Assembly: GCA_001004665.1 (NCBI GenBank)
Contig: LCRO01000006.1
Span: 444-64,443, forward strand
DNA: 64,000 nt
Source: Candidatus Adlerbacteria bacterium GW2011_GWA1_54_10
Lineage (GTDB): Bacteria > Patescibacteriota > Minisyncoccia > Phycocordibacterales > SBAW01
Reading direction: 5' to 3'
The notes below the pieces were generated by a model. That model saw only the letters and a list, made by a program, of their open reading frames with translations. It was not told the origin of the DNA and made no database searches. Made by a program: the position numbers and the translations under genes. Of the stretch, positions 21,914 through 48,107 are shown piece after piece (position 1 is the stretch's first letter; every line of letters begins with the position of its first letter).

Positions 21914-22172
21914 TCACGATACTACATGTCCGACTTCATCGTAAATTGGCAAAACATCCGCTAAAGTGACGGTAATGGATCGGCAAAAACTGCGGCACAG
22001 TATCTCGCGCGGAATTGTCCGTTGGCAGGCACCGCGCCTTAAGCCCGTGGTCAAGGAGCGTGGGGTGCAAAAGATAAAGAAACCGAAGGAGACTTAGAGC
22101 CAAAGAGATAGGTATCCACAGAATTTGTGTATTTTGTGTATTTTGCGGCAAGATTTGTGCTACTGTTAGTGC

Positions 22173-22850
22173 ATGGATAAATTCACAAAAATTCTTACAG
22201 GCAAGCAGAAACGGGTACTCGATAATATTAAGCTGTATCTGGATGCAAAGGGCATACCCCCGACGCTCGACGAACTCCGTAAAAATCTGGGCTTCAAATC
22301 CCTGCGCACGGTCACGCAATATCTTGAGATATTGGAGCGCAAGGGACACATCGTGCGGCGCAAAAACGCGCGCCGCAATATAGACCTGCGCGCGGTAGAC
22401 GCCGCGGGTACCTCGGCGACCCTTGTGTCGGTTCCGGTAGTCGCGAACGTCGGTTGCGACAACTTGAGCGTATTCGCGCAGGAAAATTCTGACGAGTATC
22501 TGCAGGTTGATAAAAAAATAGTAGACGTCGCCGGCGATATCGTTGCGGTTCGCGCCGTGGGGGAGAGCATGGCGGATGCCGGCATTGGGAGCGGAGATTA
22601 TATTCTGGTGCAGTTTACCGACAGGGTAGAGAGCGGGGACAGGGTTGCCGCGATAGTAGGCGACATGATTACGGTCAAGCGCCTAATTCGGCAGGGCGGA
22701 GTGACTGTTCTTTATCCGGAATCCAAAGACCCAAAGTACAAACCGATAGTTCTGCGCGAGGACTTTAAGATAGCTGGGAAGGTCTTGTGCGTCATATCCG
22801 CATCTCTGGCCGAGGCGCCCGAAGTTCTGCCGGAAGAGGACTGGAGGTAA
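22173..22850 (+). CDS. lexA: LexA repressor
   Basis: N-terminal winged HTH (LT.KQ..VL..I......G.PPTL.EL) and C-terminal S24 peptidase with catalytic Ser (GESM) and Lys (VKRL). Confidence 0.9.
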   Translation: MDKFTKILTGKQKRVLDNIKLYLDAKGIPPTLDELRKNLGFKSLRTVTQYLEILERKGHIVRRKNARRNIDLRAVDAAGTSATLVSVPVVANVGCDNLSVFAQENSDEYLQVDKKIVDVAGDIVAVRAVGESMADAGIGSGDYILVQFTDRVESGDRVAAIVGDMITVKRLIRQGGVTVLYPESKDPKYKPIVLREDFKIAGKVLCVISASLAEAPEVLPEEDWR

Positions 22851-33832: not shown

Positions 33833-33919
33833 GGAAGGGTGGCTGAGTGGTCGAAGGCACCGGTTTGGAGTACCGGCATGGGGGAAACCTCATCGGGAGT
33901 TCGAATCTCCCCCCTTCCG
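33833..33919 (+). tRNA. tRNA-Ser (GGA)
   Basis: Manual fold: acceptor GGAAGGG/CCCTTCC, anticodon stem CCGGU/ACCGG with loop UUGGAGU, long variable arm, T-loop TTCGAAT. Confidence 0.8.
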
Positions 33920-33921
33920 CA

Positions 33922-34185
33922 ATTTTTCGAAAAGGGTTTCCGAACCAAAAATATGGTCGGCGCGAAGCGCCGTCTGTTCTGCATTCCCCCCCGCCAAATC
34001 AGAAATGCATGGAGCGTTTTTCTTTCGGGGTTGCCGTCGTACTCGGCGGCGGGCGGGGCCTCGGTCGCACTGGCACGGAATCGGAGCGTACAGCGTCGTT
34101 TAGCGCCACCACGCGCTCGGCGCGCGCGAAGTCAGTCCTCCTCCGGATGCTCGCCAAAATAGGTTCGAATGTTGTACAGTAAAGA
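33922..34185. repeat. third diverged copy of the ~250-bp repeat arm family (same orientation as 1520-1790); contains a C7 tract (33996-34002)
   Basis: Shares blocks with the arms at 60-330 and 1520-1790, e.g. GCGAAGTCAGTC, CCACCACGCG and GATGCT.GC.AAAATAGGTTCGA. Directly follows tRNA-Ser. Confidence 0.65.
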
Positions 34186-39019: not shown

Positions 39020-39111
39020 CGGAAGTTTGGAGCGCTCTCCATGGGCGGCTCGTAAAGGGACCGCCGGCGCTCGAGTCGACCGAAGTTTCATAACGTGATA
39101 CCAATATACGA

Positions 39112-40960
39112 ATGCAAAATGATATATATGTCCGCAACTTCAGCATCATAAGTCATGTTGATCATGGCAAATCGACCCTTGCCGACCGGCTTCTTGAGCT
39201 TACGGGCACCATAGAGAAGCGCAAAATGCGCGAACAGGTTCTCGACTCGATGGAGCTCGAACGCGAGCGCGGCATTACGATAAAAATGCAGCCGGTGCGC
39301 ATGCGGTATGAGGAGTATGTGCTGAATCTTATAGATACACCAGGGCATGTAGATTTTTCCTACGAAGTTTCCCGCGCGCTTTCCGCCGTCGAGGGCGCAC
39401 TGCTCTTGGTGGACGCTACGGAGGGCGTGCAGGCGCAGACACTCTCGGTTTTGCGCTTAGCGCAGGCTCAAGGACTCGCCATCGTTCCGGCCATCTCCAA
39501 AATAGATTCGCCGCTGGCGAAAATTGATGACGTAAGGCGCCAAGTGGCAAAACTGCTCGCGATTATGGAAGAGGAAATTTTATTATGCTCAGGCAAAACC
39601 GGGGAGGGAGTTGAAAGCGTGCTTAAGGCAATAGTCGAAAGAATTCCGGCTCCAAAACCTGCCTCGGCAAAACCAGCAAATTCCGGGTACGGCGATTGCC
39701 TCGCCGTCGCTCGGCAAACCCCCTCCATTTGCTGTTTTGCCTCTGCAGGCTCTCATATTCGACTTTCAGTATTCCGACCATCAGGGCGTAATAGTGTACT
39801 TGCGTGTCTTTGGCGGCAACATCAAAAAAGGCGACACACTGGAGTTTGCGATGAGCGGTCGCGCATTTTCCGCACTTGAGGTGGGAATATTTGCTCCTGC
39901 TCCGCAACCTGTCAGCGAGCTCTCTGCCGGTTCTATAGGCTATGTAGTGACTGGTATCAAGGAAGCTGGTTTCGCACGCGTGGGCGACACTATACGGCAA
40001 AAAGGCTCCAAGACGTCAATTCTGCCCGGTTATGCCGAGCCGCACCCCGTTGTCTGGGCAAGCTTGTATCCCGAAAGCCAGGATAACTTTACCGCCCTGC
40101 GGCAGGCCCTTATGCGCCTAAGGCTTAGCGACTCGGCGCTGTCGTTCGAGGAGGAGTCCTCGGGCATTCTCGGCCGCGGATTCCGGTGCGGCCTCCTCGG
40201 CATGCTTCATCTTGAGATAGTTACCGAACGTCTGCGGCGCGAATTTAATTTAAGGCTTATCGTAACCATGCCGACCGTGCATTATGAGGTCGAGCTTAAA
40301 AACGGTAAACGCATTACGATATACTCGCCCGCGCTCTTTCCGGAGCATGGAGATGTTCAAAAAGTGTATGAGCCTTACGTGGAAGCTGAAATCATTTTGC
40401 CCGCCGAATATCTTGGCGCACTCACTACTTTGCTGTACGAGCATGAGACAAAGGCCGCATCAACCGACACCTTCAGCGAGGGTCGGATGATAATAAAGGC
40501 AATAATGCCCCTGCGGGAGCTTATGCGTAATTTCTTTGACAAAGTTAAGAGCATTTCACAGGGATATGCGTCTGTGGCATGGGAGATGCGCGACCTGCGC
40601 GAGGCGCAAGTTACCAAGCTCGACATATTGATTGCGGACGAGAGCATACCGGCTTTCGCCCGTATAGTCTCCGAGCATCGCGCGCAAGGCGAGGCGGTAA
40701 GCGCCGTGGAGAAGCTCTATAAAATTTTGCCGCGCCAGCTATTTGCGGCAAAAATACAAGGCAAGGCTCTGGGGCGCATACTGTCATCGCGCACCCTGCC
40801 GCCCCTGCGGAAGGACGTTACCGGGTACCTCTATGGCGGCGACAGGACCCGCAAAATGAAGCTCTGGGCAAAGCAAAAACGCGGCAAGGAAAAGCTAAAA
40901 GAGCGCGGGAAAGTGAATATCCCAGAAGAAGTGTTCTATAAAATGATCAAGAGCGAATAG
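39112..40960 (+). CDS. lepA: elongation factor 4 (LepA), +1 frameshift between ~39665 and ~39736
   Basis: ORF 39112-39879 holds the LepA G-domain ([15 protein letters not shown] ... DTPGHVDF ... IVERIPAPK), then loses similarity. ORF 39737-40960 resumes with [13 protein letters not shown] ... through the LepA C-terminal domain. A C5 run sits at 39717-39721. Confidence 0.85.
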
Positions 40961-41083
40961 CCCTTAGAAAAGATAGATAAAATAGGAGAATATCAGCGAC
41001 ACTATCATAAGAACGGCCACGACGCCGAATGCCTTTGTTATACGCTCCCTGTTCTTTCCAAACATGAAGGTATACTAGCAAAT

Positions 41084-41467
41084 ATGCAGGAGTTTCGCCA
41101 GCGCCGCGCGAACAAGGCAAGCGTGCCCCGAGTGCTTATGCGCATGGCCGGTGCCGCGCTCCTGCTTTTTTTGACTTTTACCGCGGCGCGCGCGACGTAC
41201 GGCATGTACGGGAGATTCAGCGGCGCAAGCTCGCACAACGCGGCCTCAACCGCAAAACAGAGCGAGCTCGAAAGTGAGCTCGCGCGGCTTAAAGACAGTG
41301 TCGGGGAGTTGCAAAGCGAGCGCGGGGTCGAGGAGGCCTTGCGCGAGCGCTACGGGCTTGCGAGGCCGGGCGAGGGCGAGATACGTATAGTACGGCAGGC
41401 GCCGCTTCGGGGTGGCGAGGAGCCCGGTTTCCTCGAGCGCGTTTGGAACAGGTTGTTCGTATGGTAA
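41084..41467 (+). CDS. ftsB: septum formation initiator (FtsB/DivIC-like)
   Basis: N-terminal TM anchor followed by a coiled-coil (ELESELARLKDSVGELQSERGVEEALRERYGL). Confidence 0.65.
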   Translation: MQEFRQRRANKASVPRVLMRMAGAALLLFLTFTAARATYGMYGRFSGASSHNAASTAKQSELESELARLKDSVGELQSERGVEEALRERYGLARPGEGEIRIVRQAPLRGGEEPGFLERVWNRLFVW

Positions 41468-41489
41468 AATCTTTTTCGCGAGCGCGAAA

Positions 41490-41563
41490 GCGGGATTAGT
41501 TTAATGGCAGAACTTCTGCTTCCCAAGCAGGTGGCGCGAGTTCGATTCTCGCATCCCGCACCA
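41490..41563 (+). tRNA. tRNA-Gly (CCC), CCA encoded
   Basis: Manual fold: acceptor GCGGGAT/ATCCCGC, anticodon stem UCUGC/GCAGG with loop UUCCCAA, T-loop GTTCGATTC, 3' ACCA. Confidence 0.8.
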
Positions 41564-41597
41564 ATACAGAACTCAACGGCTTTTTCAAAGCCAAAAG

Positions 41598-41630
41598 GTG
41601 GGACGCGCGAAGCGCGTCCCACTGATTTTC
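41598..41630 (+). terminator. hairpin terminator after tRNA-Gly; first of four hairpins in 41598-41850
   Basis: GGGACGCGC-GAA-GCGCGTCCC followed by ACTGATTTTCCCCC. Confidence 0.55.
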
Positions 41631-42369
41631 CCCCATTTTTCCAAACGAATTCAGAATTTTTGGCGCGCTTGCGCGCACCTGTTTTTCGCCGAGGAGGAGG
41701 TTCGAGCCAAAGATTTCTTTGGCACAGACCTTTTTCGCAAAAAGGTCTGAATCAGAAGCGGATATAGATGAGATTGGCCGGATGCTCGGCGGCTGGATCC
41801 GTTCAAGCAAGGAGCGATAAGGGAAGCGCCCGCACAAGGGCGGGCGCTTCCGTGGATAGTGGGATAACTGCCGAGCGGCACCGGAACCCACGTCGTCGAC
41901 GCGGTAGCCGTAACAGTAGCTGACGCTGAGCCCGACCTCGTCGAAGCTGCCGACTACCGACGGGTACTCGCCCGAGCACTTATCGGTCTTGATCGTCGTC
42001 TCGGCGCAGTGGGCCCACTTCGAGCCGTTGGGACGCTTGCCGGTCTTGCGGAAGACGAATTGGTTTTTCGTGGTCTCGGCGACCGTCGTCGCCAACCCGT
42101 ACTCCGGCGGGAGCATCTTCACGTGTTCGTCGGGCAACTTGCCCGTCGAGCCTGGGACGATTTCGATGCGCAGCAGATGCCAGCGCGGCGCAAGCGTTGT
42201 CACGTGGACATGCGGCTGGCCGTCGTGCCACGAAGTCGGGTAGAAATTCGGCGATCTCGAACAGCGAGTTGCCGAACACGAGGCGAGCGATGCGCGTGTC
42301 CGTTTTAGGCAGATGGAACCAGCCGTTTGTCCCATTTCCGAACGAAAAGCGAACACTCAAAATACCCTG

Positions 42370-42570
42370 TTTTTGTGTTCGGTTTGTTCGGTTTTAGACA
42401 CAAATCGGCGACATTAAGGGGTGTCTAATATGTCTAATCTGACACCTGATTGGCTGTCAGATTTGTAAGGTTTTGGCCTGTCGGGTGTCGGATTTGTCGG
42501 ATTTTGCTCTAAAATTGCGCGCGTGCAATATATCGCTTTTAGTGTGCAATTTGTGCAATTTTGACCCTGA
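42370..42570. repeat. cluster of short iteron-like direct repeats and small palindromes
   Basis: TGTTCGGTT x2, TGTCTAAT x2 inside the GGTGTC...GACACC palindrome, CTGA..TCAG, GTCGG x3 (GTCGGATTT x2), GTGCAAT x3. Confidence 0.7.
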
Positions 42571-42674
42571 CTAGGATACCTCGGCCTGCTATACTGAAAT
42601 CTCCAGAACGATCCTTACGGTGCCTTGCGTGGCAGGGTCTGAGACTAGGATGGGGCACCAATATTTGATACACT

Positions 42675-42923
42675 GTGACTCATATGAAAACCGTAACCAT
42701 TTACTCGACGCCGACGTGCCATTTCTGTCACATGGCGCGGGACTTTTTCAACGAGAAGGGAATATCATACATCGACCATGACGTGGCGGCCGACGGGGCG
42801 AAGCGCCAGGAAATGATACAAATGACAGGTCAGCTCGGCGTGCCGGTTATCGTAATAGACGGCGACATTATGGTCGGCTTTGATCGCGCCCGTATTGCTG
42901 ATAAATTGGGGATTGCCGCATAA
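42675..42923 (+). CDS. glutaredoxin-like protein (CxxC = CHFC)
   Basis: 82 aa with TPTCHFCHMARDFF ... GVPVIVIDG, the glutaredoxin/NrdH fold pattern. Confidence 0.8.
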   Translation: MTHMKTVTIYSTPTCHFCHMARDFFNEKGISYIDHDVAADGAKRQEMIQMTGQLGVPVIVIDGDIMVGFDRARIADKLGIAA

Positions 42924-42942
42924 TAAGTCTGCGGCGGCGCGG

Positions 42943-43014
42943 GCCCCCGTAGTTCAATAGATAGAACAGCCCCGTCCTAAGGGGTAGATGTGGGTGCAAT
43001 TCCTGCCGGGGGCG
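42943..43014 (+). tRNA. tRNA-Arg (CCU)
   Basis: Manual fold: acceptor GCCCCCG/CGGGGGC (7 bp), D stem GTTC/GAAC, anticodon stem GCCCC/GGGGT with loop GUCCUAA, T stem GTGGG/CCTGC (two G-U pairs) with unusual T-loop TGCAATT. CCA not encoded. Confidence 0.65.
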
Positions 43015-43038
43015 CAGATAATACAGAGTACACAATCT

Positions 43039-44844
43039 ATGGATGGCCGGAAACAAGAAGCTGTACTTACTTCAAGGAAGCTTGTCGCGGACGGCGCGTA
43101 TGAGGTTTCTTTCGAGCTTTCCGAGTCTATCCAATTTGCGCCGGGACAATATGCCTGGGTAATACTGCCGGAGCTTGCGCATCCCGACCGCCGCGGGAAT
43201 CGCCGGTCCTTCTCTATCATTTCAACGCCTTCCGACGCCAAAAACATTCGCTTTCTTTTCCGTGTTCATTCTCCAAACAGCGGGTATAAAAAGACTCTTC
43301 TTGAGCTTCCGCTCGGCTCGCGCGCGCAAATAGATGCGCCGTTCGGATTACACACTCTGCCCAATGCCACCACAATCATAATGGTGGCCGGAGGCGTGGG
43401 GATTTCCTCTTTCTTAAGCATTATCCGCGACATGGAGGAGCGCGGTGCATGGAGACAACTGACGCTTATTTTCGGCAACTCGTCGCAAAAATCGGCCCCA
43501 TTCCTCGATGAGCTTAGGATGTATGCAAAAAACCGTCCGATTTTTGAACTGCGCGAGGTAGAGGGTTCGATATCGAAAGAACATCTTCCCGTCGGCACGA
43601 CGCCCAAAGACACTCGATGGCTTTTGGCCGGTCCAAAGGAAATGACCAACAAAGTCGCCGCCGTGCTTACGGCCGCGGATATTGACCCTGGCCGCGTGTT
43701 GTGCGAAGAATTCCCTCCGCCGGCTCTCGACAAAGGACTGCCGGTTATCGACGAACAGACTATGTCGGATTCCAATTTTTATAAACTGGCTGTCGAGAAC
43801 GCCTCTAATCACGTAATTTTTACCGATATCGAAGGCACCATAGTGTATTGCAACAAGGCGGCCGAGCACATAACCGGATACACGTTTGAGGAAATGCGCG
43901 GCTCGACGCCGCGCCTGTGGGGAGGTCTTATGGATAAAAATTTTTACGAGCATTTATGGCGGATAATAAAGCGCGAACGCAAGCCGTACTCCGGCAAGAT
44001 AAAGAACAGGAGAAAGAACGGCGAAGTATATACGGTGATCGCACGAATTTCGCCTGTCTTGGGCAGAGACGGCGATCTTATAGGTTTCCTCGGCACCGAA
44101 GAGGACATAACCGACCTGGAGAAAATAGACCAGGCGAAGACCGAGTTTGTCTCGCTTGCGTCGCATCAATTGCGCTCGCCGCTCTCCGTAATCAACTGGT
44201 ACACCGAAATGCTCCTTGGCGAGGGAGTCGGAGGGCTGAACGAGAAGCAAAAGAGGTATTTATCGGAAGTCAAAAATGGGAGCCGGCGAATGACCGAACT
44301 CGTAAAGGATCTGCTTAACGTGTCGCGCCTTGAGCTTGGGACTCTTGTCATAGAACCCCGGCCCGTAAGCCTGCCTGCGCTTATTGCGGAAGCGGTGCAG
44401 GAGCAAGCGCCGGATTTGCATAAGAAAAACATAAAGCTTAACGAATCGTACGCGCCGCAGGTTTCTACATTTCCCGCGGACCCCAAGTTTCTGAAGATAA
44501 TAGTGCAAAACTTGCTGTCCAATGCGGTGAAGTACACCCAGGATGGAGGAGAAGTCAGCGTGCGTACCGAGCTTGCGGACGGGAAGATGGTTCTTTCGGT
44601 TTCAGATACGGGGTATGGCATACCGGAAGATCAACAGCGGAAAATATTCACTAAGCTTTTCCGCGCGCGCAACGTCGTCAAAAAAGACACGGAGGGCTCC
44701 GGCATAGGACTGTATCTGGTGAAGTCCATAGTAGAGCGCTCCGGCGGCTCTATATGGTTTACTTCCAAAGAAGGTGCGGGGACGACGTTTTTTGTGGCGT
44801 TTCCTGCGGAGGGGATGCGCGCTCAGCGGGATGATATAATGTAA
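43039..44844 (+). CDS. sensor histidine kinase with N-terminal FNR-like FAD/NAD(P)-binding oxidoreductase domain and PAS domain
   Basis: First ~235 aa resemble the ferredoxin-reductase type FAD-binding fold: RRSFSIIS (RxYS-like), MVAGGVGISSF (NAD-binding glycine loop), C-terminal ...EEF. Then PAS (IFTDIEGTIVYCNKAAEHITGY), HisKA H-box (ASHQLRSPL) and HATPase_c (G1 DTGYGIP, G2 GSGIGL). The ORF-track start at 42988 lies inside tRNA-Arg, so the start is set to the Met at 43039. Confidence 0.75.
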   Translation: MDGRKQEAVLTSRKLVADGAYEVSFELSESIQFAPGQYAWVILPELAHPDRRGNRRSFSIISTPSDAKNIRFLFRVHSPNSGYKKTLLELPLGSRAQIDAPFGLHTLPNATTIIMVAGGVGISSFLSIIRDMEERGAWRQLTLIFGNSSQKSAPFLDELRMYAKNRPIFELREVEGSISKEHLPVGTTPKDTRWLLAGPKEMTNKVAAVLTAADIDPGRVLCEEFPPPALDKGLPVIDEQTMSDSNFYKLAVENASNHVIFTDIEGTIVYCNKAAEHITGYTFEEMRGSTPRLWGGLMDKNFYEHLWRIIKRERKPYSGKIKNRRKNGEVYTVIARISPVLGRDGDLIGFLGTEEDITDLEKIDQAKTEFVSLASHQLRSPLSVINWYTEMLLGEGVGGLNEKQKRYLSEVKNGSRRMTELVKDLLNVSRLELGTLVIEPRPVSLPALIAEAVQEQAPDLHKKNIKLNESYAPQVSTFPADPKFLKIIVQNLLSNAVKYTQDGGEVSVRTELADGKMVLSVSDTGYGIPEDQQRKIFTKLFRARNVVKKDTEGSGIGLYLVKSIVERSGGSIWFTSKEGAGTTFFVAFPAEGMRAQRDDIM

Positions 44845-44855
44845 ACCGTTAAACG

Positions 44856-45239
44856 ATGGAATCCGACAAAAATAAAGTCCTGCTTATTGCCGAAGACGAG
44901 CCGTCTCTGCGCTATATATTGCGCGATAAATTGTCCAATATCGGATTTACGGTTTTTGAGGCGGCCGACGGGGAAGAGGGACTTGCGGTGGCCATGAAGG
45001 AACACCCGGACCTTATTTTGCTCGACCTTGTAATGCCGAAGATGGACGGCATCTCGATGCTGAAGAAATTGCGCGAGAGTGATTGGGGCAAGTCGGTCAA
45101 AGTTCTTGTGCTGACGAACCTGGACGAAACGGGTAAAATTTCCGAGGCTGTCGAGCACGGCGCGGAAGAATATTTGATAAAAAGCGACTGGTCCATAGAG
45201 TCAATAGTGGCAAAAATCCGGGAGAAATTCGGCATGTAA
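44856..45239 (+). CDS. single-domain response regulator (CheY-like receiver)
   Basis: DD pair (EDE), phospho-acceptor D in LILLDLVMPKMDG, T/K residues conserved. 127 aa with no output domain. Confidence 0.85.
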   Translation: MESDKNKVLLIAEDEPSLRYILRDKLSNIGFTVFEAADGEEGLAVAMKEHPDLILLDLVMPKMDGISMLKKLRESDWGKSVKVLVLTNLDETGKISEAVEHGAEEYLIKSDWSIESIVAKIREKFGM

Positions 45240-45244
45240 AGCAA

Positions 45245-45496
45245 TTGCGCATGGACCCAGAGATAGAAGAGCTTAAAGAGCTTGCGCGCGCGCAGAGCAG
45301 GATCGCGGAAGACACTAACCGCATCGTGCACAAACTCCATCGCGGCGTCTGGTGGGGAAGGATATGGACATTGCTTTGGTGGGCGGCGGTGCTCGGTATA
45401 GGCGGAGCCACATATTACTACTATCTCGCGCCATATGTGGACCAGATACAGGCACTTTACGGCAACGCCCGCGGAATTTTTGAGAATTTTAGGTAA
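45245..45496 (+). CDS. hypothetical small membrane protein
   Basis: 83 aa: coiled N-terminal half and one Trp-rich TM helix. Confidence 0.45.
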   Translation: MRMDPEIEELKELARAQSRIAEDTNRIVHKLHRGVWWGRIWTLLWWAAVLGIGGATYYYYLAPYVDQIQALYGNARGIFENFR

Positions 45497-47033
45497 CTGC
45501 CGCGTAGTGATATACTATAAAAAACCGCTTGGGTAGCTCAGTTGGTAGAGCATCTCCCTGAAGAGGAGGGGGTCGCCGGTTCGAGCCCGGCCCCAAGCAC
45601 CACGTTGGAAATGTCAAAGATTCAGATGTCGCCTCGCTTCGCTCGGCGACCAAATCGTATGGATTTTTCGGGGCAAAAAGAAATTCCCGATTCCATGTTG
45701 GCAATTCGGAAAGATTATCTGTCTGAAGGAGATTTGCGGCTTGATTCAAGGATTTTACGAACTCACGAGCCGGTTCGAGCCAAGACAACCCTTTTGTCTC
45801 AAAATCGGTGATTTTCTCGGAAAGCGCGACTTTTTGGAAAATGAGAATATCTTTTTTGGCAGCGTATTCTTTTTGTGTTAGCGTGTCGTCAAGATAGACA
45901 TCAAGTAGCTTTTGAATTCTTGTCTCTACTTGCGATAACTGCTCTTTGAGATTTACCACTTCACTTTGCGCCTGTTCTTTTGCTTGATTTTCTTCCGTAT
46001 CCAAAGCCACCAAAACTTTCTCGGTGTCTTGGCTCGACAAAGAAACTTTTTGAAGGAAGGTTTTGATTTGGGAAACTAACTGATTTTCACCGAGATACTT
46101 TTCTTGGCATACGCCTCGCTTTTTGGTACAGCGATAGTAAGTGTAAATACCGCCATTTCCCTTTGCATATTGAGCAGTAATTGAGCAACCACACGAGGCG
46201 CATTTCATAAGGCCAAGAAAAGCAAAACTATGTTTTCTATCGGGACGTACTTTCCCACGCTTCGTCATAACTTCCTGACATTTATCAAAAAGTTTCTTTG
46301 ATATTAACGGCTCGTGCATTCCCTCAAAAATTTCCCCTTTGTATCTCATCAGTCCAATGTAGAAAGGATTTTGTAGAATATGCTGAACATTGCTCAAGGA
46401 TATTTTGTTATCAGCATTAGTGAGCAGTTTCTTCTTCTCACACCAATTTGCAAGAATGTTGAGAGAATATGCTCCGGTAGCGTACATTTCAAATATCTTT
46501 CTTACTTTAGGAGCTTTTTCTTTATCAACATCGATACCTCTCGTTTTGGCGTTATTTAGATAGCCAACCGGAGCCCAACTTGGCCATACCCCATTTCGTA
46601 TTTTTTGCCGTAGTCCACGCTTCACATTCTCTCGCAAATTGTCCACGAAGTATTTACTTTGCCCAAAAGCAATGTTCAGCATGAATAATCCTTGCGGTGT
46701 AGGTTCAAACCAGAAACAGGGAAATTTGAGAGCACGAATCAAGCCGCGATCCACAAAATGGATAATCTTTCCGCCGTCTACCGAATTTCTTGCAAGACGA
46801 TCCGGATGCCAAGAAACAATGCCATCTGCTTTTCCTTCCTCAATCAATGACAACATTTCTGCGAATTTCATTCGTCCGGGTTCTTTTGCGGTTTTGGCCT
46901 CTTGGAAAGAGGCGACAATTTCAAGTTTTTCTTTTGCGGCAAATTCTTTGAGCTCAACAAGTTGAGCTTCAATCGATAGAACTTGTCGGTCATCTTCTTC
47001 GGTGCTTTTGCGAGCGTATATTATGTATTTCAT
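45489..47033 (-). CDS. large serine recombinase (resolvase/invertase catalytic domain + recombinase domain + zinc ribbon)
   Basis: N-terminus MKYIIYARKSTEEDDRQVLSIEAQ carries the catalytic Ser motif. Central recombinase domain, Cys cluster CASCGC...YYRC, coiled-coil. The ORF continues with no stop through the left inverted repeat and antisense through tRNA-Phe to 45489, so the true C-terminus is uncertain. Confidence 0.8.
   Translation of the reverse strand: MKYIIYARKSTEEDDRQVLSIEAQLVELKEFAAKEKLEIVASFQEAKTAKEPGRMKFAEMLSLIEEGKADGIVSWHPDRLARNSVDGGKIIHFVDRGLIRALKFPCFWFEPTPQGLFMLNIAFGQSKYFVDNLRENVKRGLRQKIRNGVWPSWAPVGYLNNAKTRGIDVDKEKAPKVRKIFEMYATGAYSLNILANWCEKKKLLTNADNKISLSNVQHILQNPFYIGLMRYKGEIFEGMHEPLISKKLFDKCQEVMTKRGKVRPDRKHSFAFLGLMKCASCGCSITAQYAKGNGGIYTYYRCTKKRGVCQEKYLGENQLVSQIKTFLQKVSLSSQDTEKVLVALDTEENQAKEQAQSEVVNLKEQLSQVETRIQKLLDVYLDDTLTQKEYAAKKDILIFQKVALSEKITDFETKGLSWLEPAREFVKSLNQAANLLQTDNLSELPTWNREFLFAPKNPYDLVAERSEATSESLTFPTWCLGPGSNRRPPPLQGDALPTELPKRFFIVYHYAAVT
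45527..45602 (+). tRNA. tRNA-Phe (GAA), CCA encoded
   Basis: Manual fold: GCTTGGG/CCCAAGC acceptor, D-loop AGCTCAGTTGGTAGAGC, anticodon loop CUGAAGA, T-loop GGTTCGAGCC. Preceded by a TATACT -10 element. Confidence 0.9.
45619..45693. repeat. left terminal inverted repeat, 75 bp perfect
   Basis: ATTCAGATGTCGCCTCGCTTCGCTCGGCGACCAAATCGTATGGATTTTTCGGGGCAAAAAGAAATTCCCGATTCC. Confidence 0.9.
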
Positions 47034-47079
47034 AGTTTTTGTTAGTTAATGATTGAAATTTTTCTTTTCTGCTTCTAAC

Positions 47080-47154
47080 GGAATCGGGAATTTCTTTTTG
47101 CCCCGAAAAATCCATACGATTTGGTCGCCGAGCGAAGCGAGGCGACATCTGAAT
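47080..47154. repeat. right terminal inverted repeat, 75 bp perfect
   Basis: Exact reverse complement of 45619-45693. Confidence 0.9.
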
Positions 47155-47356
47155 GCCGCACGAATCAAAACCGCAAAAGAACTTGTTAAAAACATCGGCT
47201 CGAACCATATTTTGTAGAAGCAGAAAAGAAAAATTTTAATCATTTGATTTTTGTTCTCAAGAAGCGGCTTTTAGCCGCTTCTTGACTTTATATATTATTC
47301 TGGTATCATGTGTCATAGTGTTCGGGGAATGAACTGACCTTTGAAAGGAGAATGCG

Positions 47357-47833
47357 ATGGAATACGTGTTTTGGTGGTTTCTTCTCGCCATTCCGTGCTT
47401 TTTTGTTGCTTACTGCAATGGCGCAGACATGAACTTCAGGTTGAACTCTCCCAGCTATGAGGAAGGCTTCTGGAAGTTCTACAAGAACTTCTTCAGTGAT
47501 GGTTTTCGCCTCCTTGTCCACGACTACTTCGGGGTTTACTGTCCATGGAGTTGGGAAAGGGCAAAGAGGCATCGCCTCGCAGATATGCGCACGTATCTCG
47601 GGGCAGACGGACGTTGTCATGATCGCCTTGGCCACATAACCGCGGGGGATTGCGACAATCCCGAAAAACAGGAGGCAATCGCTCGCCACGCCTACATCAG
47701 CCGAACGAAGCAATGGACTGGCGGCGCGTTCAACTTTCTCATCGCACCAATACCAGGCTCGTTCATCATCATCGGCACCGTGATAGCAGGCGTTGTCGAA
47801 CTGGGACGACACCTTATCAACAAGGGTGCGTAA
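47357..47833 (+). CDS. hypothetical membrane protein (158 aa) in an AT-rich segment
   Basis: Strong Shine-Dalgarno AAAGGAG 7 nt upstream, which is unusual in this window. N- and C-terminal TM helices; Cys/His/Trp-rich middle. No family recognised. Confidence 0.5.
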   Translation: MEYVFWWFLLAIPCFFVAYCNGADMNFRLNSPSYEEGFWKFYKNFFSDGFRLLVHDYFGVYCPWSWERAKRHRLADMRTYLGADGRCHDRLGHITAGDCDNPEKQEAIARHAYISRTKQWTGGAFNFLIAPIPGSFIIIGTVIAGVVELGRHLINKGA

Positions 47834-47916
47834 CGCTCACGGTGAGTTTCTCATCAAGGCGCACGACCTACGGGTACGGCGCTTTTCTTTTTTATAAATC
47901 AAAGAACAAAGAATTT

Positions 47917-47981
47917 GCCGCCAAAGCAGTAAATTTTTCAATCCATTTTTAATTGAAAAATTTACTGAAATGAGTTAATCT
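47917..47981. repeat. two adjacent perfect palindromes: 16-bp arms CAGTAAATTTTTCAAT/ATTGAAAAATTTACTG with 9-bp spacer, and 10-bp arms AATGAGTTAA/TTAACTCATT
   Basis: Read directly from the sequence, in the AT-rich spacer between the hypothetical gene and hsp20. Confidence 0.85.
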
Positions 47982-48107
47982 TAACTCATTAGAAAAACTT
48001 GAAATTGTCAGCGGTGCGGCTCCGCCGCCTTTCCGGATTTTCGCGGGGGAACTTCCTCGCCGCCGCAGGCGGCGAAAGCGGTTCGGACTAATTCAAGAAT
48101 AGAGCAC

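What the first reader, a model, noticed from the sequence alone, without database searches (positions are those of the whole stretch)
41564..42942. tRNA-Gly to tRNA-Arg interval: hairpin cluster, GC-rich gene fragment and iteron-like repeat field
Between two tRNA genes lie three unusual things. (a) Four strong hairpins within 260 bp (41598-41850). (b) A ~400-bp segment (41870-42260) of distinctly higher GC whose only long ORF runs on the minus strand and continues antisense through tRNA-Gly, a typical signature of a truncated foreign gene. (c) A 200-bp field of at least five families of short direct repeats and palindromes (TGTTCGGTT x2, TGTCTAAT x2 within GGTGTC..GACACC, GTCGG(ATTT) x3, GTGCAAT x3) just upstream of a glutaredoxin-like gene. 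This resembles a replication origin or iteron region, or a densely regulated promoter from a plasmid or phage, or the remnant of an island integrated at a tRNA.
Basis: seen in the sequence. Interest (0 to 1): 0.6.

Follow-up and report, generated by a model that had tools for sequence, protein, structure and literature searches.

The report
Decayed tRNA island with retroelement remnant
The odd DNA between the two tRNA genes is the wreck of mobile DNA: the tail of a recombinase gene that inserts beside tRNA genes, fused to leftovers of a protein-diversifying retroelement, plus an unexplained array of short repeats in front of the glutaredoxin gene.

Summary
All three observations are real. The host is a Patescibacteria (Adlerbacteria-like) bacterium. 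In most relatives tRNA-Gly(CCC) and grx lie about 40-140 bp apart; here about 1.1 kb is inserted.

(a) Hairpins at 41578-41749 are the last ~66 codons of a large serine recombinase (LSR) gene on the minus strand. At least 439 metagenomic relatives exist. Of 80 fetched, 54 abut the CCA end of an antisense tRNA, of more than 20 species. An intact paralog sits at tRNA-Phe (45489-47033).

(b) The GC-rich piece is a doubly deleted, frameshifted target gene of a diversity-generating retroelement (DGR), with its variable region. Intact relatives have a template repeat differing only at adenines (11/11, twice), plus Avd and reverse transcriptase. The window keeps 21 avd codons (41755-41817) and the hairpin after the avd stop (41822-41851). 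It has no RT and no TR, so the system is dead. A GAAGC microhomology joins the avd and LSR remnants.

(c) The repeat field is non-random: three exact 9-nt tandem duplets within 190 bp, 0.24 expected per 64 kb. It recurs upstream of grx in one distant relative. Nothing supports a replication origin. Its function is unknown; operator sites are my best guess.

The parts
41490..41563 (+). tRNA-Gly(CCC). Its CCA end is the insertion point of the recombinase element.
   Evidence: ARAGORN; Rfam tRNA 67.9 bits. In 54 of 80 related loci an antisense tRNA starts exactly 4 nt before the end of the conserved recombinase tail.
41564..41759 (-). 3'-terminal remnant (about 66 codons) of a large serine recombinase gene. 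It contains five palindromic hairpins (41578-41592, 41598-41622, 41663-41676, 41706-41723, 41725-41749).
   Evidence: 82% DNA identity to L059, where the sequence ends a 545-aa Resolvase+Recombinase+Zn_ribbon ORF. 218 protein hits and at least 439 metagenome relatives. 97% identity to the family consensus over 67 aa. Variability by codon position is 3 > 1 > 2. Compensatory stem changes are present.
41755..41759 (.). Deletion junction. The 5-nt microhomology GAAGC is shared by the avd remnant and the recombinase remnant.
   Evidence: avd homology starts at 41755. Recombinase-tail homology ends at 41759.
41755..41820 (+). Remnant of the DGR accessory gene avd: its last 21 codons plus the stop codon.
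   Evidence: tblastn with the L008 Avd (Pfam bAvd 2e-20) hits window 41755-41817, 14/21 identical, E 3e-6, aligned to Avd residues 96-116.
41822..41851 (.). Perfect 12-bp hairpin. It is the positional counterpart of the hairpin that lies between TR and the avd stop in intact relatives.
   Evidence: the repeat finder I11. Aligned with L004 TR-downstream AAACACCCTCT..AGAGGGTGTTT and with the L008 hairpin.
41867..41977 (-). Variable region (VR) of the DGR target gene, including a VR-type IMH-like end (GGTGCCGCTCGG). It now joins directly to TR-downstream sequence.
   Evidence: Aligns to the VRs of L004 and L007, whose TR copies differ only at TR adenines. The variable protein columns fall here.
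41867..42247 (-). C-terminal about 127 codons of the DGR target (variable protein) gene; GC3 0.85.
   Evidence: 86% DNA identity to L007 754-1134. Protein 62-83% identical to the 281-291-aa homologs P0002-P0008. Periodicity.
42248..42326 (-). Two further scraps of the same gene: codons about 61-80 in another frame (42248-42304) and 23 nt of its 5' leader (42304-42326). Two internal deletions removed the start codon and about 75 codons.
   Evidence: blastn against L007: window 42304-42248 = L007 476-532 (95%); window 42326-42304 = L007 231-253 (100%). Frame comparison.
42346..42565 (+). Repeat field. It holds four exact or near-exact tandem 9-nt duplets of the form TGT-N4-TTTGT-N4-TTTTG with different cores, plus two degenerate ones at 42453 and 42521. 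Start-to-start spacings are 44, 33, 33, 35 and 22 nt. Each is accompanied by small palindromes.
   Evidence: Conserved module order and concerted core changes in L052 upstream of its grx. Absent from 528 kb of other CPR loci.
42567..42595 (+). Promoter-like site CTGACT-N17-TATACT with a TG extension, directly after the last duplet.
   Evidence: Promoter scan. The same arrangement occurs in L052 (CTGACC-N17-TACGAT). The motif TATACTGAAA resembles the grx promoters of relatives.
42684..42923 (+). Glutaredoxin (NrdH-like) gene, a native chromosomal neighbour.
   Evidence: Pfam Glutaredoxin 6e-19. Syntenic in about 60 relatives.
45489..47033 (-). Intact paralogous large serine recombinase reading antisense through tRNA-Phe (45527-45602). 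It belongs to a second island whose far end is at about 47991-48090.

Best explanation
The about 1.1-kb tRNA-Gly to grx interval is decayed mobile DNA in a variable-insertion site of a Patescibacteria chromosome.

Shown:
1. A large-serine-recombinase (LSR) element once sat with its recombinase gene convergent on tRNA-Gly, abutting the tRNA's CCA end. Only the last ~66 codons survive. These are unusual because they are both coding and built from five conserved palindromes.
2. Next to it lay a diversity-generating retroelement ordered target gene/VR, TR, hairpin, avd (opposite strand), RT.

Inferred:
3. One deletion, at a GAAGC microhomology, removed the recombinase body, RT and most of avd.
4. 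A VR/TR-level deletion fused VR to TR-downstream sequence.
5. Two more deletions and a frameshift destroyed the target gene.

Nothing here can mutagenise or move any more. The 286-codon ORF is a chance read-through of four unrelated scraps.

The DGR was either cargo of the LSR element or its immediate neighbour; I cannot tell which.

The repeat field lies in the inserted DNA, just upstream of a promoter-like site and of grx. It most likely acts as an array of operator-like sites, though periodic (~11-bp) spacing is seen in the window only. This last point is inference only.
For: Synteny. lepA-divIC-tRNA-Gly-grx-tRNA-Arg-tRNA-Phe is conserved in about 60 of 80 relatives. The Gly-grx gap is usually 40-140 bp, or holds unrelated cargo.

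LSR.
- L059 carries the same tRNA-Gly plus hairpin sequence as the end of a 545-aa Resolvase/Recombinase/Zn-ribbon ORF.
- There are at least 439 metagenomic relatives. Of 80 fetched, 45 are full length and 54 abut antisense tRNAs of more than 20 species, always at offset -4.
- The tail shows a codon-position variability signature and compensatory stem changes.

DGR.
- Homologs of 281-291 aa exist.
- L004 and L007 have VR/TR pairs with 11/11 differences at TR adenines.
- The P0002 contig has bAvd and a downstream gene cut by the contig end.
- L008, identical to the window for about 400 nt, retains bAvd and an RVT_1 gene.
- The avd remnant scores E 3e-6.
- The window has no RT and no TR.
- L108 shows an LSR gene directly followed by a DGR.

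Field.
Against: - No att duplication, partial tRNA-Gly copy or P'-arm sequence marks the far end of the island. Its right boundary and the cargo-versus-neighbour question therefore stay open.
- The C-type lectin fold expected of a DGR variable protein could not be confirmed. The model is confident (pLDDT 91), but the best Foldseek E-value is 0.39; Mtd, TaqVP, FGE and snake-venom lectins appear only among weak hits.
- L008 differs from the window at many non-adenine positions in the VR region. The exact order of deletions is therefore not reconstructable.
- The operator reading of the field has no identified binding protein, and each duplet has a different core.
Confidence: 0.8

Rival explanations
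1. The repeat field is a replication origin or iteron region of a plasmid or phage, integrated or episomal.
For: Clustered short direct repeats and palindromes; locally lower GC (0.44-0.46); spacings near multiples of 11 bp.
Against: No rep, par or DnaA-type gene lies nearby. No unit occurs more than twice with the same core, whereas iterons are many copies of one sequence. The interval has no DNA similarity to plasmid or phage records, and the 286-aa minus-strand ORF (not the field itself) has no protein match there. The cumulative GC skew shows no turn. The same module sits upstream of chromosomal grx in L052.
Confidence: 0.04
2. The hairpin cluster is an independent structured non-coding RNA or a terminator/REP-like cassette downstream of tRNA-Gly, not a gene remnant.
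For: Very strong folding (z = -6.2). Compensatory changes in stems. Two stems are followed by T-runs and score as terminators, one on each strand. No Rfam family matches, so it would be new.
Against: In 45 of 80 fetched loci the sequence is the in-frame end of a full-length recombinase ORF, and a further 24 are cut by a contig end. Variability follows codon positions, 3 > 1 > 2, in all three segments. The truncated copies start at scattered positions, as decay would give. The two readings are not exclusive: the palindromes may also serve as terminators for the tRNA after insertion.
Confidence: 0.1
3. The 286-codon minus-strand ORF 41496..42356 is a real gene. Gene callers annotate it as such (P0001).
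For: It is the longest ORF there, and gene callers called the identical ORF on two contigs.
Against: It concatenates four unrelated pieces: a frameshifted target-gene fragment, the antisense of avd, a recombinase tail, and the antisense of tRNA-Gly. It has no Pfam domain. Full-length homologs end right after the VR.
Confidence: 0.03
4. The DGR was a resident chromosomal system between tRNA-Gly and grx. An LSR element later inserted at the tRNA between them, and the two were never one element.
For: LSR elements insert precisely at the tRNA CCA end. One intact target homolog (L006) lies beside recG, a chromosomal gene. Published DGR clade 2 of Patescibacteria is described as cell-encoded (PMC8144416).
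Against: None of 80 syntenic relatives has DGR parts at this site. L108 shows an LSR and a DGR contiguous on one contig. This rival differs from the best explanation only in history, not in what the sequence now is.
Confidence: 0.35

Closest known systems
Diversity-generating retroelements: Bordetella phage BPP-1 mtd/avd/TR/brt, and the Patescibacteria-restricted DGR clade 2 of Roux et al. 2021 (PMC8144416)
   Same: The target gene has its VR at the extreme C-terminus. In intact relatives the TR differs from the VR only at adenines. Avd and RT genes are present in relatives. A hairpin lies close to the repeat. The host phylum matches.
   Different: The window copy is dead: no RT, no TR, avd reduced to 21 codons, and a target gene with two deletions and a frameshift. 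Gene order in intact relatives is target-VR, TR, avd (opposite strand), RT, which differs from BPP-1. The target family (about 800 cluster representatives) has no Pfam model, and its lectin fold is unconfirmed.
tRNA-targeting integrative islands, e.g. tycheposons of Prochlorococcus (bioRxiv 10.1101/2020.12.28.424599), and large serine integrases such as phiC31/Bxb1 (own knowledge)
   Same: A site-specific recombinase gene lies next to the tRNA. Variable cargo sits next to tRNAs. Degraded integrase fragments mark older insertions. The domain set is that of an LSR.
   Different: Here the recombinase is nearly always an LSR, whereas 910 of 937 tycheposons use tyrosine recombinases. No partial tRNA duplication flanks the insert. 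The ORF reads on through the antisense tRNA. One family abuts more than 20 tRNA species. The last ~70 codons are a conserved cassette of five palindromes.
Integration-dependent immunity of mycobacteriophages BPs/Brujita, with attP inside a gene's 3' end (own knowledge; a lead, not tested)
   Same: The crossover point lies inside the coding 3' end of an element gene. The protein's C-terminus therefore differs between the free form (..SSVLV-SLLYQARTYFQNK*) and the integrated form (..SSVLV plus tRNA-antisense residues).
   Different: There the affected gene is the repressor and the integrase is a tyrosine recombinase. No functional consequence is shown here.
Operator arrays of direct repeats bound by response regulators or phage repressors, e.g. 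PhoB boxes (own knowledge)
   Same: Tandem direct repeats, spaced at near-multiples of 11 bp in the window, directly upstream of a -35-like element. An unrelated phage family has a GTGCAAT x4 intergenic array.
   Different: Each duplet has its own 4-5-nt core, repeated exactly within the duplet. The unit length is 9 nt. No cognate protein is known.

Membership tests
Diversity-generating retroelement (DGR) | DGR-type reverse transcriptase encoded at the locus | tested here: not met
   tblastn with the L008 RT fragment finds nothing in the 64-kb window. The sister contig L008 has an RVT_1 gene (1.9e-7), and the P0002 contig has a downstream gene cut by the contig end, after bAvd.
Diversity-generating retroelement (DGR) | Template repeat (TR) paired with VR, differing only at TR adenines | tested here: not met
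   The window holds no second copy of the VR (blastn word size 7). The feature is met in relatives L004 (11/11 over 85 nt) and L007 (11/11 over 80 nt).
Diversity-generating retroelement (DGR) | Target gene with VR at its 3' end and an IMH-like VR boundary | tested here: met
   Window 41867-41977 aligns to the VRs. The VR-type end GGTGCCGCTCGG is retained, and the variable protein columns coincide with TR AAC codons. The gene itself is a pseudogene.
Diversity-generating retroelement (DGR) | Accessory variability determinant (Avd) | tested here: inconclusive
   Only the last 21 codons remain (E 3e-6). Full bAvd is present in L008 (2e-20) and on the P0002 contig.
Diversity-generating retroelement (DGR) | VR displayed on a C-type lectin (or Ig-like) fold | tested here: inconclusive
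Large-serine-recombinase integrative element at a tRNA | Gene with Resolvase + Recombinase + zinc-ribbon domains | tested here: not met
   At tRNA-Gly only the last ~66 codons remain. The feature is met for the paralog at tRNA-Phe (45489-47033) and for L059.
Large-serine-recombinase integrative element at a tRNA | Fixed junction with the tRNA 3' end | tested here: met
   The conserved tail ends in TTGGTG, where TGG is the antisense of CCA. The same offset (-4) occurs in 54 of 80 loci.
Large-serine-recombinase integrative element at a tRNA | Recognisable second end (attR / P' arm) | tested here: not met
   No P'-arm homology and no partial tRNA-Gly lie between 41760 and 42700. A P'-like end does exist for the tRNA-Phe island, at 47991-48090.
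Plasmid/phage iteron origin | Several copies of one iteron sequence next to a rep gene and an AT-rich unwinding element | tested here: not met
   Each core occurs only as a pair. No rep gene is present. There is no similarity to plasmids or phages.
Known RNA families (Rfam 15) | Match at or above the gathering score in 40500-44000 | tested here: not met
   Only the two tRNAs match. All other hits are far below threshold.

The most novel reading that the evidence does not exclude
Two readings are not excluded.

(1) The conserved five-palindrome, still-coding tail of this CPR recombinase family is a functional device. On insertion at a tRNA's CCA end it would supply new terminators for the tRNA. 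It would also switch the recombinase's own C-terminus between free and integrated forms, possibly contributing to the in-place flipping of tRNA genes seen among relatives.

(2) The field of phased 9-nt duplets, with cores that change in concert, is a new kind of cis-element. It could be a recognition array read by its repeat geometry rather than by its sequence.
Probability: 0.2. Interest if true: 0.7.

Novelty: new member of a known kind. Interest (0 to 1): 0.45.

Why it matters
For annotation: a 279-286-aa 'hypothetical protein' called on this and identical contigs is a chimera of four scraps and should be removed.

For biology:
- It documents how a DGR dies, leaving a frozen VR fused to TR-flanking sequence.
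- It shows that in streamlined Patescibacteria genomes the tRNA-rich lepA-grx region is a variable-insertion site (an insertion hotspot is inferred).
- It exposes a very widespread but apparently undescribed family of LSR elements (at least 439 metagenomic copies). These abut the CCA end of many different tRNAs and carry cargo such as DGRs. That is useful both for understanding gene flow in CPR bacteria and as a source of recombinases with defined tRNA-end targets.

The 9-nt duplet array is a small open puzzle in an organism group whose promoters and regulators are essentially uncharacterised.

Tried and rejected
- tblastn of the long ORF against phage and plasmid records, and blastn of the whole interval: no match.
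- Pfam on all six local ORFs: only grx and DivIC matched.
- Viral-contig scans for the target family and for the recombinase tail found nothing.
- A search for a TR copy, an RT, a partial tRNA-Gly copy or a P' arm in the interval was negative.
- The grx leader (42556-42668) as a structured RNA: z-scores near 0, rejected.
- I first classed most metagenome loci as 'tail only'. That was an artefact of my HSP filter, corrected.
- LexA as binder of the duplets: one duplet lies upstream of lexA, but the cores differ and no SOS-box-like palindrome is shared, so the idea is not supported.
- The TrmB-like regulator next to the L052 field has no homolog in the window.
- The 20-mer GTGCAATTTGTGCAATTTTG occurs in one AT-rich phage family. 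I judge this an analogy, not homology.

Full report
**Observation**

- The hairpin region 41564-41860 folds far better than shuffled sequence (z = -6.2, 0 of 200 shuffles).
- The 41870-42260 segment has GC 0.64 against 0.54. Its GC3 is 0.85 in the frame of the minus-strand ORF 41496..42356, which does run antisense through tRNA-Gly.
- Three exact 9-nt tandem duplets lie within 190 bp, where about 0.24 would be expected in the whole window.

**Host and synteny**

LepA places the window in Patescibacteria/Paceibacterota, closest to Candidatus Adlerbacteria, with at best about 75% identity. In about 60 of 80 relatives the order lepA, divIC, tRNA-Gly(ccc), grx, tRNA-Arg(cct), tRNA-Phe(gaa) is kept. 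The Gly-to-grx gap is usually about 40-140 bp. In roughly a quarter of genomes it holds 0.5-2.5 kb of unrelated cargo: a LUD-domain gene, an FMN reductase or an HxlR regulator. None has DGR parts there. The interval is therefore a variable insertion site, and the 1.1 kb of this window is an insertion.

**The GC-rich fragment is a dead DGR target gene**

A protein search with the fragment found nine proteins. One is the same ORF; the others are 281-291-aa proteins, 62-83% identical, that end a few residues after the conserved motif VGCGAARK.

The window retains only three pieces, measured against L007:
- the C-terminal ~127 codons (41867-42247);
- a 19-codon piece in another frame (42248-42304);
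- 23 nt of the 5' leader (42304-42326).

So the start codon and about 75 internal codons are deleted, the frame is broken and the stop codon is lost.

The family is a DGR target:
- On the P0002 contig the gene is followed by bAvd and a gene cut by the contig end.
- In L004 and L007 the gene's 3' end is repeated about 490 nt downstream, and all 11 differences in each pair fall on adenines of the downstream copy.
- L008, identical to the window over its first ~400 nt, carries bAvd (2e-20) and an RVT_1 gene.

The window has no RT and no TR.

It does keep the last 21 codons and the stop of avd on the plus strand (41755-41820; E 3e-6). It also keeps the perfect hairpin 41822-41851, which in intact loci separates TR from the avd stop. 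The VR keeps the VR-type end GGTGCCGCTCGG but then continues into TR-downstream sequence. The ~480-nt VR-to-TR interval has therefore been lost.

The wider family has about 800 cluster representatives and no Pfam model. A confident model (pLDDT 91) gave only weak, lectin-enriched fold hits. The expected C-type lectin fold is therefore unconfirmed.

**The hairpin cluster is the end of a recombinase gene**

L059 (a Nomurabacteria MAG) matches window 41489-41759 at 82%. There the sequence is the 3' end of a 545-aa minus-strand ORF with Resolvase, Recombinase and zinc-ribbon domains.

A search with the window's translated remnant gave 218 hits. They share the consensus ..DKIASDSDLFAKKVCAKEIFGSNLLLGEKTVRASAPKILNSFGKMGGNQWDALRASHLLALKKPLSSVLV. 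After that point they diverge into translations of different antisense tRNAs, or into SLLYQARTYFQNK*.

A metagenome scan found at least 439 relatives. Among the 80 fetched:
- 45 are full-length genes, 24 are cut by a contig end and 11 are truncated;
- 54 abut an antisense tRNA at exactly the same offset, the CCA being the TGG of TTGGTG, and these involve more than 20 tRNA species;
- about a dozen instead continue into a common arm (TCTCTATTGTACCAAGCTCGAACC..). This is probably the unintegrated attP form, which is an inference.

Each hairpin is a run of palindromic codons (WDALRAS, RASAP, DLFAKKV, AKEIFG, ALKKP). Across 77 copies, variability is highest at third codon positions in all three segments. 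The stems also show compensatory replacements. The tail therefore appears to be both translated and structurally constrained. Two stems are followed by T-runs and score as terminators, one on each strand. Supplying terminators to the tRNA after insertion is a plausible but untested role.

The window contains an intact paralog at tRNA-Phe (45489-47033) with a matching far end near 48000. It also holds further end fragments near tRNA-Ser and at 91-142 and 1699-1759.

**Putting the pieces together**

Read on the minus strand, the interval runs:
1. target-gene scraps;
2. VR;
3. hairpin;
4. antisense avd end;
5. recombinase tail;
6. antisense tRNA-Gly.

The avd and recombinase homologies overlap by five bases, GAAGC (41755-41759). 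That is the signature of one microhomology-mediated deletion, which removed the recombinase body, RT and most of avd.

L108 shows an LSR gene directly followed by a different DGR (RT, Asn-rich TR, Avd), so such elements do carry DGRs. Whether this particular DGR was cargo or merely a neighbour cannot be decided. No attR, partial tRNA or P' arm survives.

The 286-codon ORF that gene callers report (P0001) is an accidental read-through of these scraps.

**The repeat field**

The field (42346-42565) consists of duplets of the form TGT-N4-TTTGT-N4-TTTTG, with cores TCGG, CTAA, CGGA and GCAA and two degenerate copies. Start-to-start spacings are 44, 33, 33, 35 and 22 nt. Small palindromes pair with the same cores.

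The field ends directly at a promoter-like site, CTGACT-N17-TATACT.

Among about 1.5 Mb of related DNA it recurs only in L052, again upstream of grx. Compared with L052:
- two duplets are identical;
- one has the same base change in both units (GTCGGA versus GTCCGA);
- the palindrome-plus-GTTCGG module sits at a different place in the array;
- a second internal motif also differs between genomes but is repeated within each (GACTAGGAT x2 versus ACCRTGAGG x3).

One more duplet lies about 28 nt upstream of lexA.

Relatives' grx promoters (TGnTATACT, about 30 nt before the ATG) suggest that native sequence resumes only near 42590-42670. The field therefore belongs to the inserted DNA.

There is no rep gene, no repeated single iteron, no similarity to plasmids or phages and no skew change. 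The leader shows no significant RNA structure.

My best guess is an array of operator-like sites (~11-bp phasing is seen in the window only) controlling the adjacent promoter. This is inference, and the reason why cores are identical within a duplet but differ between duplets is unexplained.

**Comparison and verdict**

DGRs restricted to Patescibacteria are known (clade 2 of PMC8144416). tRNA-adjacent islands with degraded integrases are known too, for example tycheposons (bioRxiv 10.1101/2020.12.28.424599). The window's feature is thus a decayed new member of known kinds.

The less ordinary by-products are:
- the very widespread LSR family, with a structured coding tail, that abuts the CCA end of many tRNAs;
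- the in-place orientation flips of tRNA-Gly among relatives (40 plus, 20 minus);
- the duplet array.

I found no paper describing the first of these in two literature searches.

Noticed in passing
window 45489-48090: A second, apparently intact island. A 514-aa large serine recombinase (Resolvase+Recombinase+Zn ribbon) reads antisense through tRNA-Phe (45527-45602). GC is low at 45700-46000. A P'-arm-like end at 47991-48090 is 85% identical over 100 nt to L164.
   Followed up: partly
window 33988-34170; 91-142 and 1699-1759: Further fragments resembling the free-form (P') arm of the same recombinase elements. One lies next to tRNA-Ser(gga) 33833-33920. An inverted pair lies near the window start.
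   Followed up: no
loci L009-L088, downstream of lepA: tRNA-Gly(ccc) lies in either orientation at the same syntenic position: 40 plus and 20 minus among relatives. tRNA-Arg(cct) and tRNA-Phe(gaa) flip as well. In L052 the grx segment is inverted, with a breakpoint 4 nt from the tRNA-Gly 3' end. This suggests recombinase-mediated inversions at tRNA ends.
   Followed up: partly
L059 7830-8040 and 9556-9695: The recombinase gene is flanked by inverted copies of its own 3' tail. The second copy has a 44-nt deletion and lies at the contig end. This could be an invertible segment or a tandem/nested insertion.
   Followed up: no
window 22124-22145: The 9-nt tandem duplet TGTGTATTT x2, of the same form as those in the field, lies about 28 nt upstream of a LexA-like gene (22173-22850; Pfam LexA_DNA_bind + Peptidase_S24).
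   Followed up: partly
L003-L007, about 60-170 nt upstream of the DGR target genes: A conserved ~110-nt leader with a long hairpin that covaries between loci (GTGAGACGAGTGC..GAATACTCGTCTCAC versus TGAGACGAGCTTC..GCAAGCTCGTCTCA), followed by a conserved CCGAGCGAGTG..GCCTAATGTCGAAAGAC motif. It is a possible cis-regulatory RNA of DGR targets. It was not searched against Rfam.
   Followed up: no
L003 43-78 and 1327-1362: A perfect 36-nt direct repeat (GATTTACCAAAATGCATGGAATTGCCGAAGGGATGA) brackets the intact target gene. No TR is found on this contig.
   Followed up: no
window 39086-40960: lepA is split into two overlapping ORFs (39112..39879 and 39737..40960). The 99.2%-identical contig L002 encodes one 624-aa LepA, and the two sequences differ by 13 gap openings. 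Sequencing or assembly indels in one of them are the likely cause.
   Followed up: partly
window 43041-45239: A PAS histidine kinase (with an N-terminal oxidoreductase-like region) and a response regulator lie between tRNA-Arg and tRNA-Phe. Most relatives have only 300-500 bp there, so this is another variable insertion in the same tRNA cluster.
   Followed up: no
L169-L172, L174, L175 (IMG/VR contigs): The exact 20-mer GTGCAATTTGTGCAATTTTG occurs in one family of AT-rich viral contigs, inside an intergenic GTGCAAT x4 array next to a TATAAT. I judge this a convergent operator-like array, not homology.
   Followed up: partly
relatives L009, L017, L031, L052, upstream of grx: The grx promoters of relatives show TTGAC(A/T) only 7 nt before an extended -10 (TGnTATACT/TATAAT). 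This is an unusual spacing, and it recurs in several genomes.
   Followed up: no
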